This document shows positions 5,541 to 47,167 of a stretch of DNA of 64,000 nt, one piece after another. The translations under genes were made by a program, and so were the position numbers. The DNA lies in assembly GCA_000091205.1 (NCBI GenBank), contig AP006487.2; one strand, given 5' to 3'. The DNA comes from Cyanidioschyzon merolae (taxonomy: Eukaryota). Positions within the stretch are counted from its first letter, which is position 1. Every line of letters begins with the position of its first letter. The notes beneath the pieces are model-generated. The model worked only from the letters and a program-made list of their open reading frames with translations. It searched no databases and had not been told where the DNA came from.

Positions 5541-6302
5541 ATGTTTAAATCTAAACTATATCGACGCTCTTGGCGGAAAAGGCGACAAGATAATCAGCAG
5601 ATCCTGAGAAATCGGGTGCTCAAACGCAAGCAGCAGGGGCAGGAACAGCAGCAGGAACAGCAGCAGGAACAGCAGCAGGAACAGCAGCCCTGGCGACTAT
5701 GCGCGGACGTGCACGCCCTGTTCCATCGCCTGAGTGAGCACAACGCCCCCGGCGAGAAAGATATGGCACACGCTTCTCCTATGCAATCCATTACGAGGCC
5801 CGGTTCGTTGACATGTACCAGTCCGGCGCTTCGCAAAGTTCTTTCTGAGACCCGGGCAGAACTTTTTCGCACGCGGGATCGTCTCCGGGAGACGCAGCAG
5901 CAGGTCCGTGAACTGGAACATGATCGGACGAGCCTCGAGCAGGCGCTCATGCGTGTCCTTGAGTTGGATCAAGTCCTCCAGAATGGGCAGACGCCATTCC
6001 GTGCTTCCCACGTCTGGGAAACTCCACGAGAGGATCGATTGTTTTCACGTGTCGGGGTGGCGAGCACCCCATGGCTGGAGCGGAGCACGGTGTGGTTCTC
6101 CCCCCGAGAACCCAACTCTGCGAAACGAGCGTTGATCATTCAAGAGGCCCTCGAGAAACGATTTCCTCAGGAAAGGGCCCCTCGTGACGAATGGGACTGT
6201 TCACCTGTTCTCCAAACGAGCGATCTGACAGCGGACCACATTTCTTTACCTAGGAATGACACATCCGCAGCATATGAACACTTTGCCGATCGATCTATAT
6301 GA
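5541..6302 (+). CDS. Hypothetical coiled-coil protein with Q/E repeat
   Basis: ORF-track ORF 5457-6302 begins at GTG; the first ATG is at 5541. It has a (QQE)n tract encoded by 12-bp repeats at ~5632-5690 and a heptad-like stretch LRETQQQVRELEHDRTSLEQALMRVLELDQVL. No family recognised. Confidence 0.3.
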   Translation: MFKSKLYRRSWRKRRQDNQQILRNRVLKRKQQGQEQQQEQQQEQQQEQQPWRLCADVHALFHRLSEHNAPGEKDMAHASPMQSITRPGSLTCTSPALRKVLSETRAELFRTRDRLRETQQQVRELEHDRTSLEQALMRVLELDQVLQNGQTPFRASHVWETPREDRLFSRVGVASTPWLERSTVWFSPREPNSAKRALIIQEALEKRFPQERAPRDEWDCSPVLQTSDLTADHISLPRNDTSAAYEHFADRSI

Positions 6303-11237: not shown

Positions 11238-12689
11238 ATGGATGCGGATCTGCTCGAAAAAGCCCGAGCACTAGCGGATCCGGCCTACGTTACTGTCGCC
11301 GAAGCCGCCCGCCGAAGTCGCACGGCGCTATTTCGTCAACTCCTTACCCAGCGAAGACTTTTGCCTCAGGGACTCGACGAGCACACCGTTCGTCTATTGG
11401 TCGACGAGCTCGCCGGCCTGGACGCAAACCAGTTTATAGACCAAGCCAACGTCGGCGAGCGCGAAGGCCGTATTTACAGCGAACTCGTGCGGGCGCGCCA
11501 TTTCGGAATGGCGCACGGCATGGGCCGGGCCGGCGACCTGGCTGCCTCGCAGCCCAAGGCCTGCGGTGCATCCATCCTCGTGCGTTTATGCGCGGCGCTA
11601 TTGCTGGATGCGCTCCATGTTGCCGGTTTCAGGAGCTGCCGTCGGGTCGCGCTGCTGCCGATCGCCACCGGCATGGCGATGACGCTGTGCCTGCTGGCGC
11701 TTCGCTGGCAGCGACCCGCCGCAGATCGCGTCCTCTGGATCCGCATCGACCAGAAAGCATGTCTGAAATGCATCAGAGCCGCTGGCTACCAGATTGATGT
11801 TCTGGAAAACAAACTCGATGGCGACCAGGTCGTCACCGATATGGAGGCGTTGGAGAAGCGTCTGGCAGCGAGCGACCCCAGCCGCTACGCTGCCGTCATC
11901 AGCACCACATCGTGTTTTGCGCCGCGTGCCCCTGACCGTGTTGTTGCTATCGCTCAGCTTTGTGCACGTTACGGCATACCGCACCTCATTAACCATGCCT
12001 ATGGCGTGCAGAGCCGCCGCTGCAACGGGCTCGTGTGCGCAGCGTGTCGCCTAGGTCGGGTCGATGCCGTCATTTTCTCGTTCGACAAGAACTTTATGGT
12101 GCCCGTCGGCGGCGCCGGCGTTGCTGGCACCTCCCCCACGTTCATCGAGGCAGTGGAGTCGTTATATCCGGGTCGCGCCTCCGTGGCACCGGTAGTGGAT
12201 CTGTTCATTACACTGCTCCAACTCGGCCGCGACGGCTTCTCGGGACTGCTGCGCGAACGCGAGCGTCGTTTCCAGCGCTTCCAGGCGCAGCTGGCGCCAG
12301 TACTCGCCAAGCACGGCGAACGACTATTGCACACGCCCGATAACCCAATCTCATTCGCAATCAGCCTGGAACACACCATGCTCGAGGGCGGCATCGAGCC
12401 AACGGCGATCGGGAGCATGCTGTACGCGAGGCGCTGTTCAGGGCCGCGCGCCGTGCTCGGCACCGAGCGGCGTCTCGTGCAGGGGGTGCTTCTAGCCGGG
12501 TACGGTGCGCATATCGCGGATTATCCGGTGCCGTACCTCAACCTGGCAGCAGCCATTGGGATCCGGGATATCGACATCGAACGATTCTGTCGCCGCCTGG
12601 ATGAGGTGCTGGGGCAGGTGCGCGGCACTCGCCACGCCTCTGCAGCTAGCGCGGCGCTTGGGCCCCGAGCCGATCCAGGTCCGCCATGA
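11238..12689 (+). CDS. SEPSECS: O-phosphoseryl-tRNA(Sec) selenium transferase (SepSecS / SLA-LP)
   Basis: Long collinear match to the SepSecS family from memory: VGEREGRIYSELVRARHFGMAHGMGRAGD, QPKACGAS, PIATGMAMTLC, WIRIDQKAC, STTSCFAPRAPD, NHAYGVQS, SFDKNFMVPVGGA (PLP lysine context), LYPGRAS, LLHTPDNPISFA. Track start 11046 is TTG. The ATG at 11238 (MDADLLEKAR) matches the family N-terminus. Confidence 0.92.
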   Translation: MDADLLEKARALADPAYVTVAEAARRSRTALFRQLLTQRRLLPQGLDEHTVRLLVDELAGLDANQFIDQANVGEREGRIYSELVRARHFGMAHGMGRAGDLAASQPKACGASILVRLCAALLLDALHVAGFRSCRRVALLPIATGMAMTLCLLALRWQRPAADRVLWIRIDQKACLKCIRAAGYQIDVLENKLDGDQVVTDMEALEKRLAASDPSRYAAVISTTSCFAPRAPDRVVAIAQLCARYGIPHLINHAYGVQSRRCNGLVCAACRLGRVDAVIFSFDKNFMVPVGGAGVAGTSPTFIEAVESLYPGRASVAPVVDLFITLLQLGRDGFSGLLRERERRFQRFQAQLAPVLAKHGERLLHTPDNPISFAISLEHTMLEGGIEPTAIGSMLYARRCSGPRAVLGTERRLVQGVLLAGYGAHIADYPVPYLNLAAAIGIRDIDIERFCRRLDEVLGQVRGTRHASAASAALGPRADPGPP

Positions 12690-13761
12690 GGCGCGGCAGG
12701 CGCACCAGTCCGCGGATTCGTGCACCGACGCGACCGTCCCTGCGAATGACGAACGTGAGATCATCGCTCGGTTTCACATTCGATGCACGCGCACACTCTT
12801 CCCGGATCCAGGCAAGCCATTCCTGAGGATTCGCTGGGGTTGCGATCCAGAATGCATTCGCTCGTCTGCGGGCGGCATCCAGGGCAACGAGCCAAGCATC
12901 GAGCACACCTGAAGCAGACCGCGTTTCCGCGCTGGACGGCACTGTAGGCGTTTGTCGGGCCGCGTCCCAGAGGACTGGCACCCAGACAACGCTCCGCTGA
13001 ATGAGTGCATCCGAATGCGGCTCGGCCTGAGCGAGCCACTCGCGCGCTTTCTCCAGACTCGTGACAGTGATGATGACTCGATACTGCCCTCGCAGGGAAG
13101 CGAGGGGAAAGCGCCAGCGAGGTCCCGGCTCCGACTCTAGCTGTAGCGCAGCGAGGCGCGCTCCCTGTTGCATGCGCTCGAGGCGTCGCTTGGCAGCCAC
13201 ATCGTCCCAGCGGTAGAGTGCTGCACAGAGCACACCAGAGGTCACGTCGATACCGAGGTTGCGCGCAGCCTGCCACCAGCTCTCGGTGGCGGTTGCACTG
13301 CCCGTGAGGGCCACCAGGCTACTCAGCGCGATAACGCTGGCGATGGTTGCACTCGCAACGCCGCCGGCATAGAGAAACTGGCGCGCTTTGCGGAACGGTG
13401 CCTCGGCCTCCTCGCGTAGCTGCCGTCGCTGTGCGGCACTGAGCGCAGCACTTGCTGGTGGTTCCCGGATAGTGCGCGCCTCCCGGAGCTGCGGTTTCGG
13501 ATAGCGGCTCTCGGGCTCCGTTCCCTGGTGGCTGCTCACGCTCGCACAGGCAACTGGCACACGCAAGTGCTTCTTGTGTGTAGGCGAGGAGCGTGCCGAT
13601 GGCATAACTGCCGCGGTGCGCGTAGCGCATGCCGCACCATGCACCCACGCGGAGCGCGAGTACCTGCACTGCCGTGTGCACACCGCAGGTACAAAACCGA
13701 ACCACAGCGACTCCACGGTAAAAGCAAGTTGTCTCTGATGACGTGCCGGTCTCGAAACCAT
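12646..13761 (-). CDS. DUF3493 / LOW-PSII-ACCUMULATION-1-like protein with N-terminal targeting extension, putative
   Basis: 371-aa ORF from ATG (cat 13759-13761). The segment QRRQLREEAEAPFRKARQFLYAGGVASATIASVIALSSLVAL is followed by a second hydrophobic helix. This resembles the DUF3493 signature (EAEAPFR..R.F.Y) seen in cyanobacterial and plastid proteins. The function call is from memory only. Confidence 0.4.
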   Translation of the reverse strand: MVSRPARHQRQLAFTVESLWFGFVPAVCTRQCRYSRSAWVHGAACATRTAAVMPSARSSPTHKKHLRVPVACASVSSHQGTEPESRYPKPQLREARTIREPPASAALSAAQRRQLREEAEAPFRKARQFLYAGGVASATIASVIALSSLVALTGSATATESWWQAARNLGIDVTSGVLCAALYRWDDVAAKRRLERMQQGARLAALQLESEPGPRWRFPLASLRGQYRVIITVTSLEKAREWLAQAEPHSDALIQRSVVWVPVLWDAARQTPTVPSSAETRSASGVLDAWLVALDAARRRANAFWIATPANPQEWLAWIREECARASNVKPSDDLTFVIRRDGRVGARIRGLVRLPRLMADLDRLGAQAPR

Positions 13762-13971
13762 AAACTTGCAGCGGAGTTTGCTTTAAGTCAGTTCCCCGAA
13801 AGGCGTCGTGCGCTTAACCTGTTGCACAGGCGCACGTGCCAGCACAAAGTGGCAGCGTTATGGATCGGCGCACACCTGCACATAGCAGCGTTCACGTTTG
13901 TACCCGTGGCTGTGCAGCCCAGTGTTGTTGCAGAGTCTGCGTCCAGGAGAGTGCAAGGAAGCGGCATGGAA

Positions 13972-15345
13972 CCGCACACCGAATGAGGTCTCGTGATCGA
14001 GTCATCTACGAGTTTGACTCCGTTCCCGCTAAACTCTGTCTAATAGAAACATACATCGACTGAGGTCTCGTGATCGATTCATCTACAAGTTTGACTCCGT
14101 TCCCGCTAGACTCTGTCTAATAGAAACGTACATCGACTGAGGTCTCGTGATCGATTCATCCACGAGTTTGACTCCGTTCCCGCTAGACTCTGTCTAATAG
14201 AAACATACACCGACTGAGGTCTCGTGATCGATTCATCTACGAGTTTGACTCCGTTCCCGCTAGACTCTGTCTAATAGAAACATACACCGACTGAGGTCTC
14301 GTGATCGATTCATCCACGAGTTTGACTCCGTTCCCGCTAGACTCTGTTTAATAGAAACAAACATCGACTGAGGTCTCGTGATCGATTCATCCACGAGTTT
14401 GACTCCGTTCCCGCTAAACTCTGTCTAATAGAAACATACACCGACTGAGGTCTCGTGATCGATTCATCCACGAGTTTGACTCCGTTCCCGCTAGACTCTG
14501 TTTAATAGAAACATACATCGACTGAGGTCTCGTGATCGATTCATCCACGAGTTTGACTCCGTTCCCGCTAGACTCTGTCTAATAGAAACATACATCGACT
14601 GAGGTCTCGTGATCGATTCATCCACGAGTTTGACTCCGTTCCCGCTAGACTCTGTTTGATAGAAACATACATCGACTGAGGTCTCGTGATCGATTCATCC
14701 ACGAGTTTGACTCCGTTCCCGCTAGACTCTGTCTAATAGAAACATACACCGACTGAGGTCTCGTGATCGATTCATCCACGAGTTTGACTCCGTTCCCGCT
14801 AGACTCTGTTTAATAGAAACAAACATCGACTGAGGTCTCGTGATCGATTCATCCACGAGTTTGACTCCGTTCCCGCTAGACTCTGTCTAATAGAAACATA
14901 CACCGACTGAGGTCTCGTGATCGATTCATCCACGAGTTTGACTCCGTTCCCGCTAGACTCTGTTTAATAGAAACATACATCGACTGAGGTCTCGTGATCG
15001 ATTCATCCACGAGTTTGACTCCGTTCCCGCTAGACTCTGTCTAATAGAAACATACATCGACTGAGGTCTCGTGATCGATTCATCCACGAGTTTGACTCCG
15101 TTCCCGCTAGACTCTGTTTGATAGAAACATACATCGACTGAGGTCTCGTGATCGATTCATCCACGAGTTTGACTCCGTTCCCGCTAGACTCTGTCTAATA
15201 GAAACATACATCGACTGAGGTCTCGTGATCGATTCATCCACGAGTTTGACTCCGTTCCCGCTAGACTCTGTCTAATAGAAACATACACCGACTGAAGTCT
15301 CGTGATCGATTCATCTACGAGTTTGACTCCGGTCCCGCTAGACTC
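13972..15345. repeat. 77-bp tandem repeat array, ~17.7 units, with 6-unit (462-bp) higher-order periodicity
   Basis: ctgagg unit starts at 14060, 14137 and 14214 give a 77-bp period. Consensus: TGAGGTCTCGTGATCGATTCATCCACGAGTTTGACTCCGTTCCCGCTAGACTCTGTCTAATAGAAACATACATCGAC. Stops occur in all six frames, and the track shows no ORF of 60 aa or more between 14063 and 15184. Confidence 0.97.
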
Positions 15346-15985
15346 CATGTTTCGTACGAGGCGCTCGCGAGGATCACCCGCGTGATACTGGGACGCGCTC
15401 GAATGCGTTGCACTCACAGAGCCTCAGTTCTCACTGGTCCCCGTGGGGCATCGTATTTGGGACGGCTTCTGCCGATGCATCATGAATCTAATCGATATAT
15501 GTGTATCTTCAGTCAGCGTGGTGATTGCATCTGTATCGCTCTGCGAGGTGTCTGGGCTCTCCGCGAATGCGTATGGTGCCCGCATCGAAAGTTTCGACAG
15601 ACGGGGTGCCAGTGGTAAAGTGAGGCTGTAACCAGGCTCTTGGAAAGACGCGTTTATCGAACAGCGCTCTGTTCATGATGTAGAACGTGTAAACACGAAG
15701 CTGCAGTCACGACATGTGCTCTGTGAAAAACAACGAGGGCCCAGGTATGCTCTGGGCCATCGCTTGGAGACAGGCTCCCTCATCCTCCATCTGTTTTGCA
15801 CAGGAGAGAGGCCGCATAGTCAAGAGATCAGCGGCCTGACATGTGTACGATGCAAAGGTAGCAGTCAGAGCCTTCTGATCCACCGGGTGTTTCCAGGACG
15901 CCCGGCGCTGCACCTACGGAGCTCGCGCTTGCGCTGGACTCTAGGGTTCAACACCCGTAGCGCTTGTCTGTTTGCGGTCGGTACT

Positions 15986-16600
15986 ATGCTGCGTCTGGCC
16001 GAATGGAAAGACGCACAAACCACAGACGATGCAGACAAAAGTGACGAAGTTCGCAGCACCTCGCAACTGGCGAGCACCCCGCCGCAACCGAGTTCCCAGG
16101 TAGCTGGAGTGCCAACACCCGCGTCGCTACGCTGGCTGAGTCAACAGCGTCTCCAGCAGGACTTGACGGAGCTCGGCGTGACTGCACCGGAACTCGAGCT
16201 GCAGTTTCCGGACCTTTCGGATATCTCCCGGTTTATCGTAACGCTGTCTCCAGCAGAGGGCTGGTACAAGGGTCTGTGCTTTCGCTTTGCGTTTACGGTG
16301 CTGGAGACGTATCCTTTCGAGCCGCCACTGGTTCGCTGCCTCGACGCTGTCTGGCACCCTAACCTGGACGAACACGGTGCGGTCTGTCTGAGTATTTTAC
16401 GTGAGGACTGGCGACCCGTGTATACGCTCGTATCGCTAGTTCAAGGGCTTTTGCACTTGTTACTGGAGCCGAACCCGAACGATGCTCTAAACGCTGCAGC
16501 CGCCGAGATGCTGGTGCAAGACCCCGCCGCCTTTCAGGCTCGTGTTCACCAGCAGGTTCGGGAGCGCCAATACCATTTCGAGAACGCTGCACCTCCATGA
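15986..16600 (+). CDS. UBC12: NEDD8-conjugating E2 enzyme (UBC12/UBE2M type)
   Basis: UBC fold motifs YPFEPPLVRCLDAVWHPNLDEHGAVCLSILREDWRPV (catalytic Cys) and LLEPNPNDALNAAAAEML are typical of UBC12. The track ORF (15716) has an implausible N-terminal extension, so I use ATG 15986 (MLRLAEWKD). Confidence 0.85.
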   Translation: MLRLAEWKDAQTTDDADKSDEVRSTSQLASTPPQPSSQVAGVPTPASLRWLSQQRLQQDLTELGVTAPELELQFPDLSDISRFIVTLSPAEGWYKGLCFRFAFTVLETYPFEPPLVRCLDAVWHPNLDEHGAVCLSILREDWRPVYTLVSLVQGLLHLLLEPNPNDALNAAAAEMLVQDPAAFQARVHQQVRERQYHFENAAPP

Positions 16601-16808: not shown

Positions 16809-18395
16809 CTAGCCGTACTGTGTGCTTCCCAGCAGGACGTCGCTTCGCGCTGCAGATGTGGATGCTCCGAGGTCAACGAATTGTGTGTCCAGAAAAGTTT
16901 CGAGCGGCAGCTGCTGTTCCGTTGCCGCTAAAAGCCAATCTATTCGATATGCTCGCGCATATCGACACCGAAACCACGCCGTCACCGGAGGTGTCAGCGC
17001 TTCCTTCATGCCGATCAGGCTGCCGATTTCGAGACGACCATGCGTTTCATTCAGATTCTCTTGTCCTGGAGCGGATCGCATTTCTACGAGGAACCACGGC
17101 AACGCTGGCCCATTCATCTGGGCATCCGTCGCACCAGCGGTATCGCCAGGAGCATCTGATGTATCCCACGGTTCGAGCGCATTTCGCTCAAAGCGAGGAC
17201 ATCCGCGACCTTTCCACACCATCCATCGATGTTCTTCGTCTTGGCAAATATGTCGAAGTACATGGAGAGAACGAGGACTCGTTAGGTGTTCCAGTCGCTG
17301 CCATATCATTTTCCGCAATGAAACCCATGAAGGATGGTCAACGCGCAGGCTAAACATCCAAATCCGTAACAAAAGCAAGAGCTGGAAACAGTCATCCGTG
17401 CGAAGTTGCTCCAGAAGGCTGGCGTCGAGAGCGCCCACCGCACAGGCCTCGACCCAGTTGTAGGTTTGGATGAGCGATCGCTGAACACCAGCGAAATGAA
17501 TCGATCGATGCCAACTCGATATGTCGGAGCTCTTGTCTTCAACGCCATCGCCAGGTGCAGGGAGAAAATCAGTCAGAACGCGGCTGGCGTCAGTTGCGTC
17601 CACAGGAACGTTACCTCCGAGCATCCGCAACAGAGCTGCAAGTGCAGTCGGACTCGGTGCCATGCTCGGCTGCTGCTCCGGGCGAGTAGATTCCGTGCTC
17701 ATTCCCTGCGTAGAAGCATGCGTTCGCTTCTGCTGATCATCAGAGTGATTCGTTGTGTCTGCGTGGGACTGCTCGGGACCAGACATCGTTATCGTCGTCG
17801 TTTTGGTAATATCCGCCTTTGTATCTGTTTCATTGGTCGAGCGCGATGATCTGGATATAAATGCTGACGCGTGGAGCGCCGCTCCCTCTTTTTCAACGTT
17901 CGGGATCTGCCGAGGCCAGTGCGAACCCGGTGCCAGAGAAGCATACGCATTCCGCAAGTTCACGTGCGAGCGATCGTCAACTGGTAGCGCTGCACTCAAC
18001 AGTCGCATAGCTCGAGCACGCAACTGCCAGTCCCGCATTCCAGAAGTGCGAGCCATGAGTCCACGCCAGAGCGCTCGAATGAGCGTCAGACCCTCCCGCG
18101 GTGTCAACGGTTCCCCGCGGCGTGCTGCGACGTACCCCTCTAGCGCTTCGAGGACCGACTCAACCTGGGACGCTCGACTGATCGTGACAGGGACCGCTTC
18201 CAACCATTCTTCAATAGTTTTCCAGTCGCCTTGGGCAAGTTGATCACGCAAAAAATCGACCGGGGAGCTCGTAGCGCCATCAGAGGCCGCAGCCGGCGCT
18301 GCCACGAAAACGCTTGCCACTTCGGTCGTCTCCGACCCGGAGGCACGAGACGCTGCGGTTGCTTTTCCTGTGCGTTGCCGTTTGGTCCCGGGCAT
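16809..18395 (-). CDS. Hypothetical protein, 528 aa
   Basis: Long uninterrupted ORF from ATG (cat 18393-18395) with non-repetitive composition. No domain recognised. Confidence 0.45.
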   Translation of the reverse strand: MPGTKRQRTGKATAASRASGSETTEVASVFVAAPAAASDGATSSPVDFLRDQLAQGDWKTIEEWLEAVPVTISRASQVESVLEALEGYVAARRGEPLTPREGLTLIRALWRGLMARTSGMRDWQLRARAMRLLSAALPVDDRSHVNLRNAYASLAPGSHWPRQIPNVEKEGAALHASAFISRSSRSTNETDTKADITKTTTITMSGPEQSHADTTNHSDDQQKRTHASTQGMSTESTRPEQQPSMAPSPTALAALLRMLGGNVPVDATDASRVLTDFLPAPGDGVEDKSSDISSWHRSIHFAGVQRSLIQTYNWVEACAVGALDASLLEQLRTDDCFQLLLLLRIWMFSLRVDHPSWVSLRKMIWQRLEHLTSPRSLHVLRHICQDEEHRWMVWKGRGCPRFERNALEPWDTSDAPGDTAGATDAQMNGPALPWFLVEMRSAPGQENLNETHGRLEIGSLIGMKEALTPPVTAWFRCRYARAYRIDWLLAATEQQLPLETFLDTQFVDLGASTSAARSDVLLGSTQYG

Positions 18396-20506: not shown

Positions 20507-21592
<1,086 letters not shown>

Positions 21593-22229
21593 AAGCCGGG
21601 TTTTGGCTCAACGGGGTACGAGCGGTGCGCTCTGGAAGAATGATGCGCAGGCGTTGTGCGCGTTCGGCGGCAATCGCTGAAAGTGAAATGTGCAGATAAT
21701 GCAAAGTGTCCAGTCGTCCGATTAGGCTCCATGGATGAATGAGGAAGCGGAAGGCGTCCCTGCCATGGTTTTCCCCAGCGTCTACCAGCTGAGTCTATTT
21801 TGGGCGGCACTACTCGAACGCGTCGGGGGAAAAGACGACCCCAGACTCCGGAAAGGCGCCACAGTGTACACCATTTTGGCTATGTTGTGGCGAATCTCGT
21901 GTATCTGTTCGTGTGGATCCACTTCGGGCTGCAGGCAAAAATGGGTACGTCGCACTAACGCGCTATCCTTCATCCGTGGGTCTGAAACACCACTGCGCGG
22001 GAGATCTTTTCGCCCCGTGGAGCATGCCTCCGATAACTTAAGCTTGTCAAAGACGGAGAGAACCATAGCTTACCTATGTGCGCGTAGGAACGCGTATCTG
22101 CCATCAGCACTAGTCGGGAGAACCTGCATGGACTATGAGTAGCCTTGTGCACGGAGCAAGTTCCCTGAAAAACTACCCACCCATGCCCCCGTGTCAGATT
22201 CAAATGGAACACGAAACCGCTTGCTCTGT

Positions 22230-23465
22230 CGCAGCCTTTCTATTTTGGCAAAAATTGGTTTAGATATACAGCCCCGGCATTCGAAGTTTATCAGTATGGG
22301 CTAGCGGATCTACGGGTGGTATTCGGATTCTCGGTCACCTTTACGATGTGGCTCTTTCGACGCTTTGCCGCTGGAATTCGTATATTACCGGAACCGAAAT
22401 GATTCGCAATGGCATCGAATCATGATTCGAAAAATAATCGATGTCGTTCCCCAATTCCTATGTACAAGTCTCTGCACTTGTCTTTTGCTATGTGAAGCGT
22501 GCTCTTGTCACGCATTATGCCAAGTTTTCGAGCTTTCTGTTCCAAGGCGACTCGAGGGCACAGCAGTTTGCGCACCTGAATTCACGACGGAAAGAGAAAA
22601 CGACGTCGTCTCTCGACGGCTCTTTCGCAAGGCTCCTCGCGAACATTCACCCCACTGCTGACGTGAAATTATCGATTCCATGCGAACAACATATGCGTCT
22701 CTCTTGTGGCCGTCGACTAGACGAGATTCCACAACAGCTGGAGACCGCTCACGGGATATGCTTGCAGAGGCGCCCATCTCTTTTTTTTTTGCGTGGAGAA
22801 AGACCCCGGACTCCGACTTGAGACATTCCAGAGATCAGTACCAGTGGGGCGTGCGTCGCTGCTTTGCTTGAAGCAAGTGCAGACGAAGCGAAAGCTCTCG
22901 TCCTGGTCTCGAGCCTGCATTCGCTTTTTCATAATTGTTTCATCATGGTCAACATCGGATTCCACAACTCGTCTACAGAATGGAACAGCGTACGCTTGTT
23001 TGTACCGCGGACAGAGTACTCGCCAATGGTATCGCTCAGAAAAAGTTCATGATCGTTGTGCATTGCACTGGGCAGGAAACCGAGAAGAGCAGCGAGGCGA
23101 AACCTCTGCTCTCTGACCTGGATGTATCGGACGGTAAAGCAAGCATTTTCGCGCCACAATGCAGCACTCGTAGGGGAAAGCGTAGCGGACATGCGGGAAC
23201 ACCCGACCACAACCTCCGGTCACTGCGACGAACGGAGTACCAGGACTATTTCCAGAAGTGATGAACGCAGATGGCGACGCATCGTTCACAGATGCTTTGG
23301 GGTCATGAAATGCGTCAATCACAGCCGCAAGTGTCGAAATCGGTACTCGAACGCTGCCACCAAAATGCTTGGATCGCTGACAACGGACCTGGAAGCGCAG
23401 CAGAGAACCTACTAATCAATGCCGGATATGAAAGATGGGAAAAGCAAGCAGGCATAGAAAACGTT
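22230..23465 (+). pseudogene. TnpB/Fanzor-like RuvC nuclease relic, family II copy 2
   Basis: One frame from 22864 to 23415 is broken by a single stop (~23050). It reads CFIMVNIGFHN (RuvC-I position, N codon 22951-22953), TEYS, NAALVGES, GHCDERSTRT, then KCVNHSRKCRNRYSNAATKML (zinc-ribbon remnant plus RuvC-III position, Y codon 23344-23346). Upstream blocks (ggattctcgg.. at ~22325; RLDEIP) align with copies 1 and 3. Confidence 0.55.
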
Positions 23466-23659
23466 CGCAAAGGCCAATAAGGATGGTATGGAGAAGACAA
23501 CAGCATTTGAATATGTATGCCCGAGTTATAGGGCCCGTTCTGTTTTCTAGTCTTCCAACTCAATTGTGTTTCCCCTCAGATGCGGTGAATAGCAGGAGGT
23601 CGAAATCACGATGGCATGTGTTGTATAGCTTGCAGACGAGGTGACTGTAGGATATATTC

Positions 23660-24500
23660 GTTACTGAATAGTTCAGGGAGAACTGCATTCCTGCTTCGGG
23701 TGAATCATAACACTGTGCTCAGATATCTGAGGAACACTGAAAGAAACAGGTACATGCGTTCCGCGCCAAAACTGGCTCAGTGAAAAACTGCCCGCAATCA
23801 ATCGTATGAAACGGCTCTTTAATCGCCTTACGGAGAACAAAAGCGACGACAGTAGCTGCCAAGAGCGTCTACGTATCTGAATACCTCGTTGGTGCGGTCC
23901 TGAAAATACTTGGGTACAGTCGCATATAAAGTCCAATGTCATTCACGGCCATCTTCAACCGAAATGTCCATTACAGCATTCCAGGGAAGTCGCCATCCGT
24001 ATGAAGCACAGGGATGTGGGTTTGTTTTTCCAGTCGATGAAACTTCCTTCGAACAGAACGGTCAGAGCATGTATAGGTACCCGTGGAGACGGAGCCCGTT
24101 GTATGTGCGATCGAAATCGAAGCGAACTGAGACATCATCACCTGTTCTCGCTACAGTAGATACATTTGGCGGCCTTCGTTTCTCTCCTAGAGAAGGCTCA
24201 TGCAACAGCACCATGCATTTTGTCAAATCACTGAGGACTTTTCTCAGACGCCTGGCGACATCTTTCTATTGGACAACGAGGTATTTCATCTTTCCTCCTC
24301 CGTTCGAGATTTTGCCGATTCTATAGGGATAGGCTTGCTTCTCGTTCCGCCGTACGCTCCGTGATTCAAACCAATCGAACGGGTGTTTCCTATCGTGAAA
24401 CGTAATGATCGCTTCACAGAGCGACTCACTGAAGCGTTCAGCACACGGTGATTCCAGGGCAAATGCCGTCTTGCTTCCGCAAATCCTTCTCGCTCCGAGG
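23660..24500 (+). mobile_element. Tc1/mariner-superfamily (DD34E) transposase relic
   Basis: HTH-like VNHNTVLRYLRN (~23700-23740). First D in VFPVDETSF (gat 24036-24038). Second D in LLDNEVFH (gac 24272-24274). E in LLLVPPYAP*FKPIERVFPIVKR (gaa 24377-24379), 35 codons after D2. In-frame stop and frameshifts present. Confidence 0.6.
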
Positions 24501-24559
24501 GGGGTCCTCTGGCGAGAGCATAAAGGAGTAAGCTCATTTTAAAGAAATTAAGGGATGAG

Positions 24560-25215
24560 CCGGGATGTAAACTCCTGAAGGCCGAAATGGAGGAACGTCA
24601 GCGAAGCACTTCGGATATAGAAAAGCCCGGAGCGCTGTTCGAGCAGCAAATGGCACAGAGGGCACGAGTTCGAGGACTCCGTGCACTGGTGCGTTCAACG
24701 AGCTCCAACAAACGCATGGAGTTCGTGAACAGGGACGAAAACGCTGCTATCAATATCAGACGATTTGCGGTGCCAAAAACGGGACCCGATGAGCAGACCC
24801 GATCCAACGTTGTGGGGTCAGCGTCTCAAACTCGAATTGCATATGGATAAACAGAAACAGGTAGCAGCCGGCAGGCAGGCAGGCAGGCCGTGCAACACTG
24901 GAAGGCGGCAGCACGTCGGTATACATTGAGCGTAACGACGCGAAGCGTTTTCGCTCTGATAACCACATAGCCCAGTCGTCGTATGCTTTTTCTGAGAACC
25001 GTTTCTCGTGATAGTGAAACGCATCGCAGTGGTACTGGTTGCGAATACTTCGCCAGGAAGGGTTTAAAAATCTAGTGACAAGCTGGGGCGTCTCTCCACA
25101 CTCTTGAACGGACACCGGGGACGCCTCCAGTTGCAGCGCACAGTCGTATGAGCTGCTGCCGCGTCGCACTGTACTCTTAAACGGACACGTGGGACACCCT
25201 AAGTTGCAGATCGCG
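24560..25215 (+). pseudogene. TnpB/Fanzor-like relic, family I copy A (3' module plus non-coding tail)
   Basis: AQRARVRGLRALVRSTSSNKRMEFVNRDENAAINIRRFAV (D codon 24734-24736). It aligns at nucleotide level with the copies at 42.2, 48.7 and 54.8 kb. Downstream, ~24900-25215 shares diverged blocks with the tail of copy B (cgctct..catagcc; acggacacgtgg). Confidence 0.55.
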
Positions 25216-27414: not shown

Positions 27415-28170
27415 CTAAATGCATGGAACACTGACGTCTTCTTTCCAGATAGGTACATAGCGCTTGAGAGCCTCAAGCGCCAGACGTACGCTCTCCACTG
27501 AGGGGCCAGTCACCAGCACGGAGACGGAACCCACGGGCACGCTTCCTGCAACAGTATGGACAAACATGTGGAGGTTTTGTTCTGCAGCGATGCGATGTAT
27601 GTAGAGCATTGCCATTTCTCTGTAACTTTCGTAAACAAGTGCCGACACGACCCTATCGCTGGAAAGTCGATCCTTGCGTACCAGACCACAAAAGCTCACT
27701 GCTGCGTTTTCAGCTTTCTTCAAGTACGCTGGGGGCACAGGCTCTTCGAGCAAAGCGACCTGCGGTATCTGCAAACTCTCTGTCCCGGTTTGAGAGGGCG
27801 CTTGTGCACCATAACCGGACAAGAGGCATTCTTTCTCGAAAACGGGATCATCTTGACTCGACTTCTGAAACTCCAGACCGCGCCCATGGTCGCTTCGTTC
27901 CATTGGAGTGCGTCCGTTCGCAGGAAGGCGATCCCAGTACTGTGGCTTTTCGAGACCAAGACTTGGCTCCTCTTCCCTTGCTTCCATCGGAACGCATCTG
28001 TTGATCAAAAAACTCTTCAACACGGTCCATGCCTCTTGACGGTGACTCGTCGCAACCACGAGCTGCTCTTCACCGACCGCGCACCGGACGACTGCCCCAA
28101 CGTTTTCTCGTGAGACTCGCTGAATCACTTCGTCGAAACTGATTGAAGCAGGCAGCCTGTAGACAGTCAT
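27415..28170 (-). CDS. Molybdopterin synthase catalytic subunit (MoaE/MOCS2B-like) with large internal insertion
   Basis: N-terminal ISFDEVIQRVSRENVGAVVRCAVG matches MOCS2B LSVDEVSQLV..GAISLFVG. C-terminal LVYESYREMA .. GSVPVGSVSVLV .. LEALKRYVPIWKED matches LEYEAY..MA .. VPVSEASIII .. LKAKVPIWKKE. About 110 residues between the two parts have no counterpart. Confidence 0.65.
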   Translation of the reverse strand: MTVYRLPASISFDEVIQRVSRENVGAVVRCAVGEEQLVVATSHRQEAWTVLKSFLINRCVPMEAREEEPSLGLEKPQYWDRLPANGRTPMERSDHGRGLEFQKSSQDDPVFEKECLLSGYGAQAPSQTGTESLQIPQVALLEEPVPPAYLKKAENAAVSFCGLVRKDRLSSDRVVSALVYESYREMAMLYIHRIAAEQNLHMFVHTVAGSVPVGSVSVLVTGPSVESVRLALEALKRYVPIWKEDVSVPCI

Positions 28171-32400: not shown

Positions 32401-33700
32401 GGCAGAGAAAAAGCACCTGAAACAGAGCCGGATACACGAGACGGTGTACGTCAGGCCGAGCGAACATCAGCTGGCGAGAATATTGACGACCAGAGGATTG
32501 CAAAAGCGAGATTTCAGGAGCAAAATACCTCGATGTACATCCGGGAATGTCCGGTGTTCGCACAGCGCCCAACAGCTTGGTGATCAACGAACCTTTGAGG
32601 GAATCGCGCAGTACTTCGTGTAAACACGGATCTGAAACGCTGAAGACTTGCGATGGAAAACAACAGTGACCATGACAGCGTGTATTTCATCCATGTTTGA
32701 AGCAAGACACTTGTATGAGACGGTTCAGCAGTCCAGAATGGCTGCCATGCCCCATATATACACATGGAACGGTTTTCCTAGAAATTCATGAACGAATATC
32801 CTGCTCCGTAATTCGACTTGACGATGTACCGACATGCAAAGCGGCGTCCTAGGTGCTCTAGCCTAGACGCCCGCCCCCGAAGACCTGCACGGTGTCGCCC
32901 TGCGAGCCTTATTTACCGCACCATACATCCCTGGGATATTTATGATGGCTCCGGCCTTGAAGATCACGCGTTTGTGTGTACGTCAGCAGCGTCGATGCGT
33001 CGCTCTAAAATCCATCTACACAGGTGTTCACGGAATGCTCGGCATTTAAAAGCGAGCCCGCTCAACTTCGTATACAATGTGTCATGCATGTAGACTTGCA
33101 TTTTCGAACGAGATCCGTCATTGGGGCACCAGCTCGAGACTGATCAAGCATCAAGCTTCGTGCACGGTAGACAGGCTGTGCTATGAACGGTTCGGCATTC
33201 GACGCCAGGCGCTGAACCCAGACTTGCGTCACCGTACAGTGCGTTTAGGGTTCCATCAGCAGTGCCTCGTTCTTTGCGTTCGTCCTGCAATTCTCCAGGT
33301 CATAGAAGCGTATCCGCAGCATGAAACTGTTCAGTGTGAGCCGAAGTAGCAACATCCAGCATAGGCATTGAAGCGCGTGTCCTATAGATTCCAAGTGCCT
33401 GTGAGCGCTCCCGCACCGGCGATGCACCTTCGTACGAGGACGCGCTCCATACCAAGTCAGCCGAAACATTTCCTATGAATCAAGTGAGGCAGAACTCGCG
33501 ATTTGTGCACTAATCCAGAAGCACGCTTTCGGGAAAGCTTAGCAACAGAATTCGGGCGATTATGTTTTGGTCTATGGTCGAGTCTTGGCTGGGAATCCCA
33601 GCTACGCAATGGATACCGACGTCAGGGAAAGCGCTAACGCATACTCGGCACTCTACGGATTATATGAACGAGCCGTTGCCTCCAACAGGGAATATGGATG

Positions 33701-34087
33701 TATCCGGCGAGATATAGAGACCTGGTGCGGAATGACTAGTGATTTCATAGGCACCGTTGAGGTAGTCGTCTGCAGGGAACTCCTGCTCGTGTCGCAGAAG
33801 CTGCGTTACCGCCACACCAGCATCGAGTGGTATCCGGCGAGATATAGAGACTTGGTGCGGAATGACTAGTGATTTCATAGGTACCGTTGAGGTAGTCGTC
33901 TGCAGGGAGCTCCTGCTCGTGTCGCAGAAGCTGCGTTACCGCCACACCAGCATCGAGTGGTATCCGGCGAGATATAGAGACTTGGTGCGGAATGACTAGT
34001 GATTTCATAGGTACCGTTGAGGTAGTCGTCTGCAGGGAACTCCTGCTCGTGTCGCAGAAGCTGCGTTACCGCCACACCAGCATCGAG
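33701..34087. repeat. 130-bp tandem repeat, ~3 units
   Basis: tatccggcgagatatagagac starts at 33701, 33831 and 33961. Units are >95% identical by eye. 130 is not a multiple of 3, so the repeated peptide in minus-strand ORFs (MKSLVIPHQVSISRRIPLDAGVAVTQLL..) shifts frame between units. Confidence 0.95.
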
Positions 34088-42989: not shown

Positions 42990-45900
42990 TGCTTCATCCG
43001 ACGTAGAATCGGGTCTCGTCGTCAGTTTGTGCTCGTACAGTCTGCGGATGCAGGCTTGCCTTCGCTGCACGACACGCTGGAGAAACTTGGTTGTTAGGAT
43101 GAATTCTGGGAGCTGCCTCTCTCCTTCGTGATCATGCATGGAATGCATTGTTGTCGGTTGGCTATGCGGATTTGTGCTTGACACCCACTACAGAAGGAAG
43201 GCGTAGAGAGCACTAAACCCGTGTGCGCATCCGATCCGCTGGACCTTCCGCCTAGAAGGTAGCACGTGAGTTTGTTGGCCACTAATGAGCACTGAGGATC
43301 TGTTAGCGAACCATCAGTTGCCAGTGCTGCACTCAGAGTGAGTGTCCGGCCTTCGACTATCACGGTGTTGCCGAGCTGCTGCTGTCCTTCGAGGAGCTCG
43401 CTGCGCTCCTGCTTCTAGCGCGGCCACTGTAGGCCTAAATATGTCAGCGTCTCGGGGATTTCGTCTCGATAGCAGGTACAGTGTGACTCCCAGTGCGATT
43501 CCAGGGTTCCTATCCGGCTTAGAGCCGGTGCTGGTAGCCAGGAGCCACCAACGCTGATTTTGGCGAGCCACTGGGTACCTCGAGCAAGTCCCGGGAATTC
43601 CAGCGCCTCCCACCAGTAATTGCATGTGTATGCTAGGTTGTAGTTCCGGTATAGAGTCAAGCCGGCGTTACTCGCGCGACTGGTACTGTATCTACGTTCC
43701 CATATTGTTGTTCGGACCGTTCGCTTGAGGCGACGGGAGAATTCTATATTCCTGGGGAATGATTGGGTAGCGTGTTTTCGCCTAAGAGGCGCTTCAGCCA
43801 AATCTGCGCTGATTTCATCCAAGTGATCTTGCGGTGCGTTGGGGTCTGCATGGATATCCGACTGAACCAGGTGTTCATGGTTGGCCCTTTGCCCCATATG
43901 CGTGCCCGGCAGCCTGCTGCTATCGCCTCTGTCGAGGGTATTTGGAGTTCAAGTCCGAGTGCCAGCAGGTTGGTTGCTCTGCTCTGCATTGAGCATCCAA
44001 CTACAACGAGTCGCATTGCCCTGTTGGCGGCTGTCTGCAGACGCGAGGCATTTGTGTGCTTCATGCCGCACCATTCAGCACCACAGGTCGCAGGCTGGAT
44101 GATACATATCCTTAGTGCGCTGGTACGGATTGCTAAGGGGATAGAGGGGTCGGATAAGAATGGGCATGCGATCGCTGTACGTCTATGCATCTTGGCGATC
44201 ATCTCGTTAACGTGTGCCTTTTCGTCGAGCGTCGGCGTGAGACAGACCCTAGGTAGCGATATTTTTCCACGATTGGAATTTCCTGATTCTGCAACCGCCA
44301 CGAGCGATTGCGAATGCTCTGCGAGTCTCCATGGATGGCCATGACGCCGCACTTCGATGCTCCTATGCTCATCTCCCAGCGATCGGCCCAGGCGCTGACT
44401 TGTTCCATGCTAGCCGCAAGCGTTTCCGGGGCGGGTGCCAACAGCACGACATCGTCCGCAAATAGAAGGCCTGCGAGGCGGTTCCCATATGGGCGCTCCC
44501 CATCGGGCATCTCCACAGTCTATCCACGGCACCTCAAGCCCGTATTGTCTGTAGTTGTTAAGCAGATCGTTGATGAAGATGTTGAAAAGGAGCGGGGATG
44601 CAGGATCGCCCTGTCGCAGTCCACGGCGGATTCTTATCGAAGGGGTTCTTGAGCCGTCGCCTAGTCGGATGCGCATCCACGAGTCTGCATAGAGCGCACG
44701 GAAGAACGCTAAGCACTTTGCGGAGACTCCGGCTCGTTCCATCTTCATAAATGGAGCCTCATGCGGGAACGTGTCAAAGGCCTTTTGGAAGTCGACGAAG
44801 CATACGTAAGTTGGTTGTTGGTCGCTAATGAAGCGACGTTGCACCACTTCAATGAGGGTCAGGGCATGGTTCATGCACTCCTCGTGGCTCCGGAATCCAG
44901 CCTGTTCTGGGGCGAAGAACTTGCGTTCCTGGAGGCCGCTGTGGATACGGTTCGTGAGCATGGCGCGAAGTAGCTTCATGATTGACGGGATGAGGCGCAT
45001 AGTCCGGTAGATGTTCATGTCTGTGTGTGTGTGGGAGTCCTTTTTGAGGATCGGTACGACCTCGACAGCCCTCCGTACATCTGGGATGTACGCTTCTTCA
45101 AACATGCGTTGAATGAGCTCCAGAAGGCGTTTGCCTAAGATTGTGTCAGGTTCATCTGGTATCGATGGTGTCCCTGTTGTCCCGTCTTTTGGGGTCGCCA
45201 GTTTCATCCACTCCGCAGGGATACCGTCGATGCCAGGTGTTTTGCGATTGCTTGAGCATAGCAGAGTCCGAACAGATTCAGGCCAGAAAATTGGGTCGTT
45301 CCATTCCGGTACCGGGTCGAGGCGCGGTAGTTCTGCAGCATATCGGTGCCAATAGATTCGGTCTTAGCAGTGCCCAGTTGCGTCTTCATGTAATTCTGTG
45401 CCGTGGTCCGTCCAGGCCTCATTCACTGAGGCACGCTCCGTCCTCAGCGCTTCCTTTTAACAGTTGGTGTGAGCCCCAAGCACTTTCTTGGTGGGTCCAG
45501 TCTCGATCGGATGTAGCCTGGGGTTTCATCTTCGTTGGTGCTCTTCAGCATAGATTCCGCCAGGGAGGCCATTTTGCGGTTTCGATCCTCTCGTTTGTCT
45601 TCTCTGGAAAGTTTCTTCGTTCTTTTGATAGCTTCCTCATGTTGCGCCTGTAGCGCCGGTAGCGCTGCCTTCGCTTCCTTGTCTCCGGCGTTGGCGCGTA
45701 TGGCGGTGCGGTTGACAATCTTGTTGAGTCGGTGGCATTCATGAATCCGAGTTTTGGTACGTCGTTTGAGGTACTGCGGCTTGCTACTGTTGTGTTCAGG
45801 TGCAAGCAGTCCCAATTTTCTGGCAATCTTCTGATTCCCATCTACAAACTCGCGTGCCAATTGGTCTGAAGATTTGTATTCACGGCTTTTCGGATCTTCA

Positions 45901-46950
45901 GCGCTGTGAGCAGGTGCCTGGGATTGGCGACGGCTTTCTTGAGTTCCAGCTGGGGTGCCCTTTCGGGGGATACCTTGTGATGGGCTCGTTTGGGAGTTCT
46001 TCTTTCTATTCTTCTGTTTTTTCTTGCTGGTCTACTTCTTCTTCGGGCTCTTTCCTGAGCTGCTTTCTCTGGTTATTTTGCATTTAAGGGGATCATGAGG
46101 TTTCTGTGTCTCTTTCTCCGTACCTCGTTGGGTCTCTTTTCCAATTGTAGAGTCCTCGACTTGTATCAGTTCTTCATTACTGTACTGGTAATTCGATATC
46201 TCGTGGTTAAATACCGAGGCGATCCCGCTAATATTCCATGATGCGAAACCTATCGAGTCGTAGCGCATAAGGGAATAGGAGTAACGCTGCGGTACTCCAG
46301 AGATACGTTGTCGATTTAGACGCAGCTTCCACAGGGTGTGTGAGAGCACATGCCACCATTGCCTCCTGCATTCCAGTCGTTCACTGAGTGTCTGCCGCAG
46401 CGCTAGCGTAGAATCAGATGTACATTAGTCAAGGTCGATTCGAATGCGAACTTTGTCTTTCCGGACGCGTGAAGCTACCCTCAACCATTGGGAAAAGTCT
46501 GCAAACCACCATTTCAGCGGCTTTGTATCCGCTCCCCAAACACATAGGCGGGCAAGTCGCTTATTCCACTTTCGACAGTGAGCATACTGCCAGCTGTCTT
46601 CCAAAGTATCCGCCGAGATTGTTTCCAAAGTTGAGGTAGGTACTCAAGGTAGAAGGTGAAACTGAGCCCGAATTCAGGGATGGATCCAGTATTTGTGCCC
46701 GAACCTGCAGCGTTGTTTCGGGAGCAGCGGATGACTGCGCTCAGAATTATCGTCATCATTCTCTGCTACTGCCTACGCCCCTCCGTTCGTTGCGGTCAAG
46801 GCCCCTGGCGTGGACTTCCTTCGCAGTCGCTCAAGCACCCCGCGTTAACCCACTTTCAGAGGTTCTCCGGAAAGACTAGACCCCTTAGGCGGACGTGGTT
46901 TGTGGGGCTTTTAAGATAGTGGTTCCTTGATAAATAGTTTGCGACTAGTT
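42990..46950 (-). mobile_element. Non-LTR (LINE-type) retrotransposon relic: APE-like endonuclease plus reverse transcriptase, multiply frameshifted
   Basis: RT blocks on the minus strand: PGIDGIPAEWMKL, NIYR.., FDTFPHE, RRGLRQGDPASPLLFNIFINDL, GLLFADDVVLLA (D codon 44456-44454), YLG, PATCGAEWCG. C-terminal Cys motif: CTCYRDEIPETLTYLGLQWPR. Endonuclease-like fragments at 46.0-46.9 kb (FYLEYLPQLWKQSRRILW, VWGADTKP, NHEISNYQ). The 3' limit is uncertain. Confidence 0.8.
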
Positions 46951-47159
46951 TGCATCGCGCTCGGTGAGCGCACCTCGGAGATCGGGCAGGCATGAGACGC
47001 TACGCGCATGCCACTGTTGAAGGGAAACACGTGACCTTGATCAATAGCGTGTTGTTCTGCTGTAAAAGTCGGATTCCCGTTGAGGGCGTAGCAAAGTATA
47101 GTTTTCAGTTCATTTCTGTTTCAACCCTCAAGTAAAAATACTCGAGTGTTTTTTCGCAG

Positions 47160-47167
47160 TATATAAG
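47160..47167 (+). promoter_or_regulatory. TATA-like box (TATATAAG) ~210 bp upstream of the family I copy C start codon
   Basis: Direct reading, inside an A/T-rich block (47100-47340) that is unusual for this window. No functional evidence. Confidence 0.2.

What the first reader, a model, noticed from the sequence alone, without database searches (positions are those of the whole stretch)
13972..15345. 77-bp minisatellite with a hairpin in every unit and a 462-bp higher-order repeat
About 17.7 contiguous units fill most of the spacer between the DUF3493-like gene (5' end at 13761) and the UBC12 gene. Each unit contains the inverted hexamers CTCGTG/CACGAG around an 11-nt loop (ATCGATTCATC) that includes the palindrome ATCGAT. 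Variant positions recur every 6 units. TGTTTAATAGAAACAAACATCG occurs at 14345 and 14807, and TGTTTGATAG occurs at 14653 and 15115. Both pairs are 462 bp (6 x 77) apart, so a 6-unit block has been duplicated. Stops occur in all six frames. There are no unique spacers, so it is not CRISPR-like. Possible roles include a protein-binding array, a boundary or origin element, or a satellite shared with other chromosomal sites.
Basis: seen in the sequence. Interest (0 to 1): 0.55.

Follow-up and report, generated by a model that had tools for sequence, protein, structure and literature searches.

The report
Single-locus 77-bp minisatellite in red alga

Summary
Tandem Repeats Finder gives one array at 13976-15345, with period 77, 17.8 copies, 96% matches and no indels. 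Two adjacent 462-bp (6-unit) blocks differ at 1 base, and there is also a 154-bp (2-unit) periodicity. The window is C. merolae 10D chromosome 5. The array lies between a DUF3493 gene (minus strand) and the Rub1/NEDD8-conjugating E2 gene (plus strand).

The hairpin is present (perfect in 14 of 18 units) but is no more stable than in shuffled sequence. No Rfam family and no tRNA matches. No ORF spans the array.

A 22-mer of the unit occurs in JGI metagenome contigs only at this same locus, in strains 99% identical to the window, and in no viral contig. The sister clade (Cyanidiococcus and a relative) keeps the gene order but lacks the 77-mer. Its spacer is 0.5-0.6 kb and holds unrelated two-copy repeats.

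Best reading: a young, lineage-specific minisatellite built by tandem duplication and unequal exchange, neutral or nearly so. A regulatory or chromatin role is not excluded and was not tested. Interest is low.

The parts
13976..15345 (.). 77-bp minisatellite: 17 full units plus a 61-bp partial unit, 46.8% G+C against 55.6% for the window
   Evidence: TRF; unit table; composition
14284..14745 (.). First copy of the 6-unit (462-bp) higher-order block
   Evidence: Differs from 14746-15207 at 1 of 462 positions; unit variant pattern a-b-c-d-e-f
14746..15207 (.). Second copy of the 6-unit (462-bp) higher-order block
13976..14129 (.). Degenerate left-edge units 1 and 2, with 5 and 3 differences from the consensus. 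Unit 1 differs between 10D and the metagenome strains.
   Evidence: window unit 1 has C4 A8 G26 T32 A57, whereas unit 1 in L001, L003 and L006 has only C4
15285..15345 (.). Degenerate right-edge partial unit (4 differences in 61 nt). The junction with unique sequence is the same in all strains.
   Evidence: the same junction ...GACTC|CATGTTTCGTACGAGG in the window, L001, L002 and L003
12646..13761 (-). DUF3493-family gene. The maximal ORF is 371 aa; the JGI/ENA contig gene calls give 319 aa, starting at 13605. It is transcribed away from the array.
   Evidence: ORF list; PF11998 on the orthologous gene calls
15986..16600 (+). Rub1/NEDD8-conjugating enzyme E2 (UBC12), 204 aa, identical to BAM79373.1 of C. 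merolae 10D. It is transcribed away from the array, and its ATG is 641 bp from the array end.
   Evidence: exact-sequence look-up; PF00179

Best explanation
This is a young, lineage-specific minisatellite in the divergent intergenic spacer between the DUF3493 gene and the Rub1-conjugating E2 gene on C. merolae chromosome 5. Inferred history: a 77-bp stretch of spacer was duplicated in tandem, by replication slippage or unequal exchange. It was then amplified and homogenised by further unequal sister-chromatid or homologue exchange and gene conversion. The most recent large event was duplication of a 6-unit (462-bp) block. I judge the array to be neutral or nearly neutral. Its only likely effect is to lengthen the shared promoter region by about 1.4 kb. 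What is shown: the structure, the higher-order blocks, the degenerate edges, the single-locus occurrence in the data searched, and the absence from the sister clade. What is inferred: the mechanism of expansion and the lack of function.
For: - Indel-free head-to-tail units at 96% identity.
- Higher-order structure typical of unequal exchange: two 462-bp blocks 461/462 identical, and mismatch minima at lags 2, 4 and 6.
- Edge units are the most diverged, as expected when homogenisation acts mainly on the interior.
- Unit composition differs between strains whose flanks are 99.1-99.4% identical. Examples are a C4-T65-G67 unit in L001 that 10D lacks, and a different first unit.
- The unit's 22-mer occurs in only 3 JGI metagenome contigs, all at this locus, and in no viral contig.
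- There are no other copies in the window, and the longest shared k-mers elsewhere in the window are 10-mers.
- The sister clade keeps the order SepSecS-DUF3493-UBC12 but has a 0.5-0.6 kb spacer with no significant match to the unit.
- No RNA family, no tRNA, no excess folding stability and no ORF.
- Other minisatellites occur in the same 64 kb (130 bp x3, 75 bp x2), so such arrays are not exceptional in this genome.
Against: - Neutrality is an argument from absence. No expression, chromatin or binding data could be consulted.
- The orthologous spacers of both sister-clade genomes also carry a tandem two-copy repeat (periods 94 and 76 bp). In each case it is the strongest short-range direct repeat in the locus fetched. 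This could hint at a locus-specific constraint or propensity.
- The complete 10D assembly was not searched, so uniqueness rests on metagenome contigs and on this window.
- Copy number in other strains is unknown, because short-read assemblies collapse the array or break at it.
Confidence: 0.7

Rival explanations
1. Cis-regulatory or chromatin element. The array would present about 18 phased copies of one or more transcription-factor sites. Candidates are the inverted CACGAG half-sites 17 bp apart centre to centre, the ATCGAT palindrome, and an E2F-like TTCCCGC. Alternatively it could position nucleosomes (2 units = 154 bp) and so tune or insulate the two divergent promoters.
For: - It lies in a divergent promoter spacer.
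- Both sister-clade genomes also have a tandem two-copy repeat in the same spacer, 50-280 bp upstream of the UBC12 ATG.
- There is a 154-bp dimer periodicity.
- The unit carries GTTCCCGC. By my own knowledge, not tested here, this resembles the E2F consensus TTTSSCGC, and a neddylation enzyme is a plausible cell-cycle target.
Against: - The unit is absent from the sister clade, and the three repeat units share no significant similarity (p = 0.04-0.14 against shuffles).
- The array ends 641 bp from the UBC12 ATG, further away than the repeats in the relatives.
- No k-mer of the unit is convincingly enriched elsewhere in the window. The best case is CGTTCCCGC, 3 observed against about 0.5 expected, among 77 k-mers tested.
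- The motif matches were found by eye among many possible motifs.
Confidence: 0.17
2. Tandem array of small non-coding RNA genes, such as snoRNA-like or hairpin RNAs, with one RNA per 77-bp unit.
For: - The unit length is in the range of C/D snoRNAs and tRNAs.
- A 13-bp imperfect hairpin with G-U pairs forms on the minus strand (33-nt segment, z = -3.45).
- There is a CTGA on the plus strand.
Against: - No Rfam match even at E <= 10 over 13700-15700, and none at gathering score in the window.
- The whole unit folds no better than shuffles on either strand. The z = -3.45 segment was picked after seeing the fold.
- There is no canonical C box (GTGATCG on +, GGATGAA on -), no terminal stem, and no spacer between units for processing (read from the sequence).
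- Within-array variants are compatible partly with the plus-strand helix and partly with the minus-strand helix, so there is no consistent compensation.
- C. merolae is reported to lack RNAi machinery (my recollection of Cerutti and Casas-Mollano 2006, not checked here).
Confidence: 0.04
3. Centromere or replication-origin DNA of chromosome 5.
For: - C. merolae centromeres are described as 2-3 kb regions of relatively low G+C (48.4% against 55%) with no other pattern (as cited in bioRxiv 10.1101/096016).
- The array is 46.8% G+C and is among the three lowest-G+C 1-kb windows here.
Against: - Published descriptions report no repeat pattern at the centromeres.
- At the 2.5-kb scale this region is 51.3% G+C. 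Two other places in the window are lower: 45701-48200 at 48.8% and 22101-24600 at 49.4%.
- A centromere is not expected to be absent from the syntenic spacer of the sister genus.
- The prior is about 8-12% that any given 64-kb window of this chromosome holds the centromere.
Confidence: 0.03
4. A relic of a tRNA gene or SINE, or the internal repeat of a mobile element. This would be relevant because C. merolae has circularly permuted tRNA genes, thought to arise through tandem duplication.
For: - The unit length of 77 bp is tRNA-sized.
- AGTTTGACTCC resembles a B box / T loop (GGTTCGANNCC) at 7 of 9 specified positions (read from the sequence).
- The tandem-duplication model for permuted tRNAs is stated in PMC3728597.
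Against: - ARAGORN finds no tRNA in the window. It finds none in a synthetic 4-unit array even at 80% thresholds or with introns allowed.
- The Rfam tRNA model finds nothing at E <= 10, although a tandem array presents every circular permutation.
- A 7-of-9 B-box match is expected by chance about 0.2 times per unit (my calculation).
- No terminal inverted repeats or target-site duplication were recognised at the array edges; this was not searched for systematically.
- The unit is not dispersed.
Confidence: 0.03

Closest known systems
Minisatellites / VNTRs with higher-order repeat structure (the class of human minisatellites and, at larger scale, alpha-satellite higher-order repeats)
   Same: Head-to-tail units of tens of bp; high inter-unit identity; multi-unit blocks duplicated as a whole (2-unit and 6-unit periodicity); degenerate edge units; unit composition that differs between close strains.
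   Different: It is a single small array (1.4 kb) at one euchromatic intergenic site in a very compact, repeat-poor 16.5-Mb genome. It is neither subtelomeric nor centromeric as far as can be told. Copy-number polymorphism is not demonstrated.
Unstable tandem repeats in yeast promoters (Vinces et al. 2009, recalled from memory, not checked here)
   Same: A tandem repeat inside a promoter or intergenic region of a compact unicellular eukaryote. Such repeats could change promoter spacing and nucleosome arrangement.
   Different: The yeast promoter repeats are mostly short-unit and AT-rich, with a demonstrated effect on expression. Here the unit is 77 bp and no effect on expression is known.
Tandem two-copy repeats in the orthologous DUF3493-UBC12 spacer of Cyanidiococcus yangmingshanensis (L008 9513-9654, period 94) and a related metagenomic species (L009 914-1063, period 76)
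   Same: The same syntenic spacer, on the UBC12-proximal side; a similar period (76 against 77) in one of them; each is the strongest short-range direct repeat in the locus fetched.
   Different: Only 2 copies; no significant sequence similarity to the 77-mer or to each other; and they lie closer to the UBC12 ATG.
CRISPR arrays
   Same: Regularly spaced short inverted repeats.
   Different: No unique spacers; the whole 77 bp repeats; the genome is eukaryotic and nuclear; no cas genes were noticed among the called genes. Not a member.
Circularly permuted or disrupted tRNA genes of C. merolae (Soma et al. 2007; PMC3728597)
   Same: The same organism; a tRNA-sized unit; tandem duplication is the proposed route to permuted tRNA genes.
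   Different: No cloverleaf, no tRNA-model score and no BHB motif were detected. Not a member.

Membership tests
Minisatellite (tandem repeat, unit about 10-100 bp) | Contiguous head-to-tail copies of one unit with no intervening unique sequence | tested here: met
   TRF: period 77, 17.8 copies, 0% indels; unit table
Minisatellite (tandem repeat, unit about 10-100 bp) | Far more copies than chance gives | tested here: met
   18 matches against 0 in 100 shuffles
Minisatellite (tandem repeat, unit about 10-100 bp) | Copy number varies between individuals or strains (the VNTR property) | tested here: inconclusive
   Metagenome contigs show 1.8-4.8 copies against 17.8. They are short-read assemblies that collapse the array or break at it. 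Unit composition does differ between strains.
Higher-order repeat organisation | Units n apart are more alike than adjacent units | tested here: met
   Mean mismatches are 0.89 at lag 6 and 1.38 at lag 2, against 2.29 at lag 1; the 462-bp blocks are 461/462 identical
Dispersed satellite family / interspersed repeat | The same unit at several genomic sites | tested here: not met
   There is no other copy in the window. The 22-mer occurs in 3 JGI metagenome contigs, all at this locus. The complete 10D assembly was not searched.
Structured RNA gene (any Rfam family, including tRNA and snoRNA) | A significant covariance-model match, or folding beyond the composition-matched expectation | tested here: not met
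   Rfam gives 0 hits at gathering score and 0 at E <= 10. ARAGORN gives 0. Folding z-scores are +0.27 and -0.50.
C/D box snoRNA | C box RUGAUGA near the 5' end, D box CUGA near the 3' end, and a terminal stem | tested here: not met
   By inspection of the unit, the plus strand has CTGA but only GTGATCG as a C-like box and no terminal complementarity, and the minus strand has no CTGA.
CRISPR array | Conserved repeats separated by unique spacers of similar length | tested here: not met
   All 77 bp repeat; there are no unique spacers
C. merolae centromere | The single CENH3-enriched, 2-3 kb, low-G+C region of the chromosome | not testable with these tools
   Composition only: the array is 46.8% G+C, but its 2.5-kb context is 51.3%, and other parts of the window are lower.
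Transcription-factor binding array / promoter element | Factor occupancy, or conservation of the site in orthologous promoters | tested here: inconclusive
   The unit is not conserved in the orthologous spacers, although those spacers have their own tandem repeats. Occupancy cannot be tested here.

The most novel reading that the evidence does not exclude
The DUF3493-UBC12 divergent spacer is under selection to carry a tandemly repeated element of about 75-95 bp period whose sequence turns over quickly. It has 18 copies in C. merolae and 2 copies in each of two sister-clade species. On this reading the element acts as a phased protein-binding or nucleosome-positioning module that sets the output or insulation of the two promoters. 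More broadly, minisatellite periods cluster at 73-77 bp in these genomes: 77, 75, 73 and 76 in the window, and 74 and 76 in L013. That could reflect a chromatin-linked, roughly half-nucleosome duplication mechanism in Cyanidiophyceae.
Probability: 0.1. Interest if true: 0.5.

Novelty: new member of a known kind. Interest (0 to 1): 0.2.

Why it matters
Mostly it does not. This is a plain minisatellite in a finished, public genome. It has three modest uses:
- It is one of the few sizeable tandem arrays in a genome known for having almost no repeats, so it could serve as a strain-typing (VNTR) marker for Cyanidioschyzon populations in Italy and Yellowstone.
- C. merolae allows precise homologous recombination, so the array is an easy test case for whether a promoter-embedded minisatellite affects two divergent genes.
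- The recurrence of tandem repeats of about 75 bp period, including in the orthologous spacer of sister species, is a small unexplained pattern that a genome-wide survey could settle.

Tried and rejected
- tRNA or permuted-tRNA origin: ARAGORN found nothing with default settings, at 80% thresholds, or with introns allowed. Only the meaningless relaxed mitochondrial mode gave calls. Rfam at E <= 10 found nothing. Rejected.
- snoRNA or other structured RNA: there are no canonical boxes and no excess stability, and Rfam also found nothing real in the sister-clade spacers. The only hit there was RsmV at 23 bits against a gathering score of 100, which is chance. Rejected.
- Homology between the 77-mer and the repeats in the orthologous spacers: rotation- and strand-aware local alignment against 300 shuffles gave p = 0.14 (L009), 0.04 (L008) and 0.14 (L008 against L009). 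Not demonstrated. Shared 7-8-mers such as ACGAGACC are at chance level.
- Looking for more Cyanidiophyceae orthologues (Galdieria, Cyanidium) to test the recurrent-repeat idea: two protein searches returned only C. merolae-like sequences, Cyanidiococcus and one related species. The next-best candidate looked up turned out to be a marine picoalga from TARA. Dead end.
- Literature: I searched for C. merolae with 'tandem repeat' and with 'minisatellite', for the gene ids CME160C-163C, and for CENH3/centromere and H3K27me3 work, including the supplements. Nothing mentions this array. Kanesaki 2015 is not held.
- Chromosome coordinates of the window could not be obtained.
- Enrichment of unit k-mers elsewhere in the window was not significant. 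Positions beyond 13960 in that output are shifted by -1380 because the array was cut out before counting.
- The bacterial promoter/terminator scan was not run, because it does not apply to a eukaryote.

Full report
**What is there.** Tandem Repeats Finder reports one dominant array in the window: 13976-15345, period 77, 17.8 copies, 96% matches, no indels, score 2537. A 50-nt core of the unit matches 18 times with at most 3 mismatches, against none in 100 shuffles, and nowhere else in the 64 kb. In register, the array is 17 full units plus a 61-nt partial unit.

Variation between units sits at a handful of positions (4, 32, 57, 65, 67, 76/77) and is mostly transitions. Units 5-10 (14284-14745) and 11-16 (14746-15207) carry the same ordered variant pattern and differ at 1 of 462 positions. 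Mean mismatches by lag are 2.29, 1.38, 2.08, 1.45, 2.20 and 0.89 for lags 1-6. So there is also a 2-unit (154-bp) periodicity beneath the 6-unit block. Edge units are the most diverged, with 5, 3 and 4 differences.

**The hairpin.** CTCGTG-N11-CACGAG is perfect in 14 of 18 units, and ATCGAT is present in 17 of 18. It is not more than chance. The whole unit folds with z = +0.27 (+ strand RNA), -0.50 (- strand RNA), and +0.19 and +0.39 as DNA. The hairpin segment alone gives z = +0.06.

A second hairpin, rich in G-U pairs, forms on the minus strand (33 nt, z = -3.45). That segment was chosen after seeing the fold. Within-array variants at its paired positions are compatible partly with the plus-strand helix and partly with the minus-strand helix, so there is no consistent compensation.

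**Not an RNA gene, not coding, not CRISPR.**
- Rfam finds nothing at gathering score in the window and nothing at E <= 10 in 13700-15700.
- ARAGORN finds no tRNA in the window. It also finds none in a synthetic 4-unit array at 80% thresholds or with introns allowed. A tandem array presents every circular permutation, so this also covers permuted tRNA genes, which C. merolae is known for.
- All six frames have 16-36 stops, and the longest open stretch is 67 aa.
- There are no unique spacers.

**Where it is.** Exact-sequence look-ups identify the window as Cyanidioschyzon merolae strain 10D, on a 528,682-bp record. The locus tags have the CME prefix, which by the naming convention means chromosome 5. 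The identified proteins are:
- 15986-16600 (+): Rub1-conjugating enzyme E2, BAM79373.1.
- 16809-18395 (-): CME163C.
- 20519-21592 (+): the 18S rRNA dimethyladenosine transferase, BAM79375.1.
- 27415-28170 (-): CME167C.

On the other side of the array lies a DUF3493 (PF11998) gene on the minus strand (12646-13605/13761). Its 3' end overlaps SepSecS. The array therefore occupies 1370 bp of a roughly 2.4-kb divergent, promoter-containing spacer. It ends 641 bp upstream of the E2 ATG.

**Distribution.** Metagenome contigs L001-L004, L006 and L024-L027 (JGI samples 3300005861, 3300005573 and 3300009503; ENA ERZ27247228 and ERZ27247235; Logan) come from strains closely related to the window; the contigs aligned to it (L001-L004, L006) are 99.1-99.4% identical. 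Where they reach the spacer, they carry the same array with the same junctions to unique DNA.

Their 1.8-4.8 copies are not trustworthy. These are short-read assemblies, several contigs start or stop inside the array, and all the Logan contigs examined (5 of 8) begin in its last unit. Unit composition does differ between strains.

A scan of all JGI metagenome contigs for a 22-mer that is invariant across all but the final partial unit found three contigs, all at this locus. Viral contigs gave none. In the data I could search, the unit is therefore locus-specific. The complete 10D assembly itself could not be searched.

**Relatives.** Two sister-clade genomes keep the order SepSecS-DUF3493-UBC12. 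One is Cyanidiococcus yangmingshanensis (L008; DUF3493 protein 69% identical). The other is a related metagenomic species (L009/L013; 67% identical to C. merolae and 77% to Cyanidiococcus).

Their spacers are about 0.5-0.6 kb and hold nothing significantly similar to the 77-mer. So the array arose in the C. merolae lineage after that split. It also predates the divergence of the 10D strain from the metagenome strains.

**An oddity.** Each relative has its own tandem two-copy repeat in the same spacer, on the UBC12 side. L008 has 48 nt at 83% identity with period 94. L009 has 74 nt at 88% identity with period 76. In each case this is the strongest short-range direct repeat in the locus fetched.

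The three units are not significantly alike (p = 0.04-0.14). Roughly 10-30% of intergenic regions in these loci hold some such repeat, and the two relatives may share one ancestral event. The coincidence is therefore only suggestive.

Minisatellite periods also cluster in these loci. The window has periods of 77 and 75, plus weak two-copy repeats spaced 73 and 76 bp apart. L013 has 74 and 76. The one clear exception is the 130-bp repeat in the window.

**Interpretation.** The features all fit a young minisatellite generated and homogenised by slippage and unequal exchange. These features are indel-free units, nested higher-order blocks, degenerate edges, differences between strains, single-locus occurrence and absence from the sister clade. 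I take that as the best explanation (0.7), with neutrality inferred rather than shown.

The main rival (about 0.17) is a regulatory or chromatin role in the divergent promoter. Candidate sites in the unit are the inverted CACGAG half-sites, ATCGAT and an E2F-like TTCCCGC. These were found by eye, no unit k-mer is convincingly enriched elsewhere in the window, and the unit is not conserved.

A centromere or origin role is unlikely. C. merolae centromeres are reported as 2-3 kb regions at 48.4% G+C with no repeat pattern. The array's 2.5-kb context is 51.3% G+C, and two other places in the window are lower.

**Literature.** Nothing I could search mentions this array. That includes the 100%-complete genome paper, the 2024 dispersed-repeat study, resequencing work, H3K27me3 work with its supplements, and searches for the neighbouring gene ids.

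**Verdict.** This is a new member of a known kind, and interest is low (0.2).

Noticed in passing
L008 9513-9654 and L009 914-1063 (= L013 5795-5944): The orthologous DUF3493-UBC12 spacers of Cyanidiococcus yangmingshanensis and a related metagenomic species each hold a tandem two-copy repeat (periods 94 and 76 bp). It lies 50-280 bp upstream of the UBC12 ATG and is unrelated in sequence to the 77-mer. In each case it is the strongest short-range direct repeat in the locus fetched.
   Followed up: partly
window 25082-25209, 48430-48583 and 55591-55706; L013 967-1221: Minisatellite and direct-repeat periods cluster at 73-77 bp. The window has a 75-bp x2.1 repeat and weak two-copy repeats spaced 73 and 76 bp apart in intergenic DNA. 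The related species has a 74-bp x3.4 array. Together with the 77- and 76-bp repeats, this may be coincidence or a preferred duplication length.
   Followed up: partly
window 33700-34087: A second clean minisatellite: 130-bp unit, 3.0 copies, 98% identity. It lies inside a roughly 4-kb stretch (about 32.0-36.0 kb) with no ORF of 200 aa or more. It is unrelated to the 77-mer.
   Followed up: partly
window 45701-48200: This is the lowest-G+C 2.5-kb stretch of the window (48.8% against 55.6% overall), it is partly ORF-poor (about 45.2-47.3 kb), and AT skew is strong just upstream (44-46 kb). The composition resembles the 48.4% reported for C. merolae centromeres. Whether this is the chromosome 5 centromere was not checked.
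   Followed up: no
window 12646-12689: The convergent genes SepSecS (+, ends 12689) and DUF3493 (-, ends 12646) overlap by 44 bp at their 3' ends. The overlap is also called in the metagenome strains, and the Cyanidiococcus gene calls overlap by 104 bp (L008 10785-10888).
   Followed up: no
window 15716-15985: The ORF holding the Rub1-conjugating E2 is open for 90 codons upstream of the annotated ATG, starting from a GTG. JGI gene callers report 294 aa and NCBI reports 204 aa. The conserved N-terminus MLRLA(E/A)WK in the two relatives supports the 204-aa start.
   Followed up: partly
window 5629-5688, 54305-54350 and 60557-60616: Short perfect microsatellite or short-unit repeats: a 12-mer x4.2, ACGA x11.5 and a 20-mer x3.0. 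At least the first and the last lie inside ORFs.
   Followed up: no
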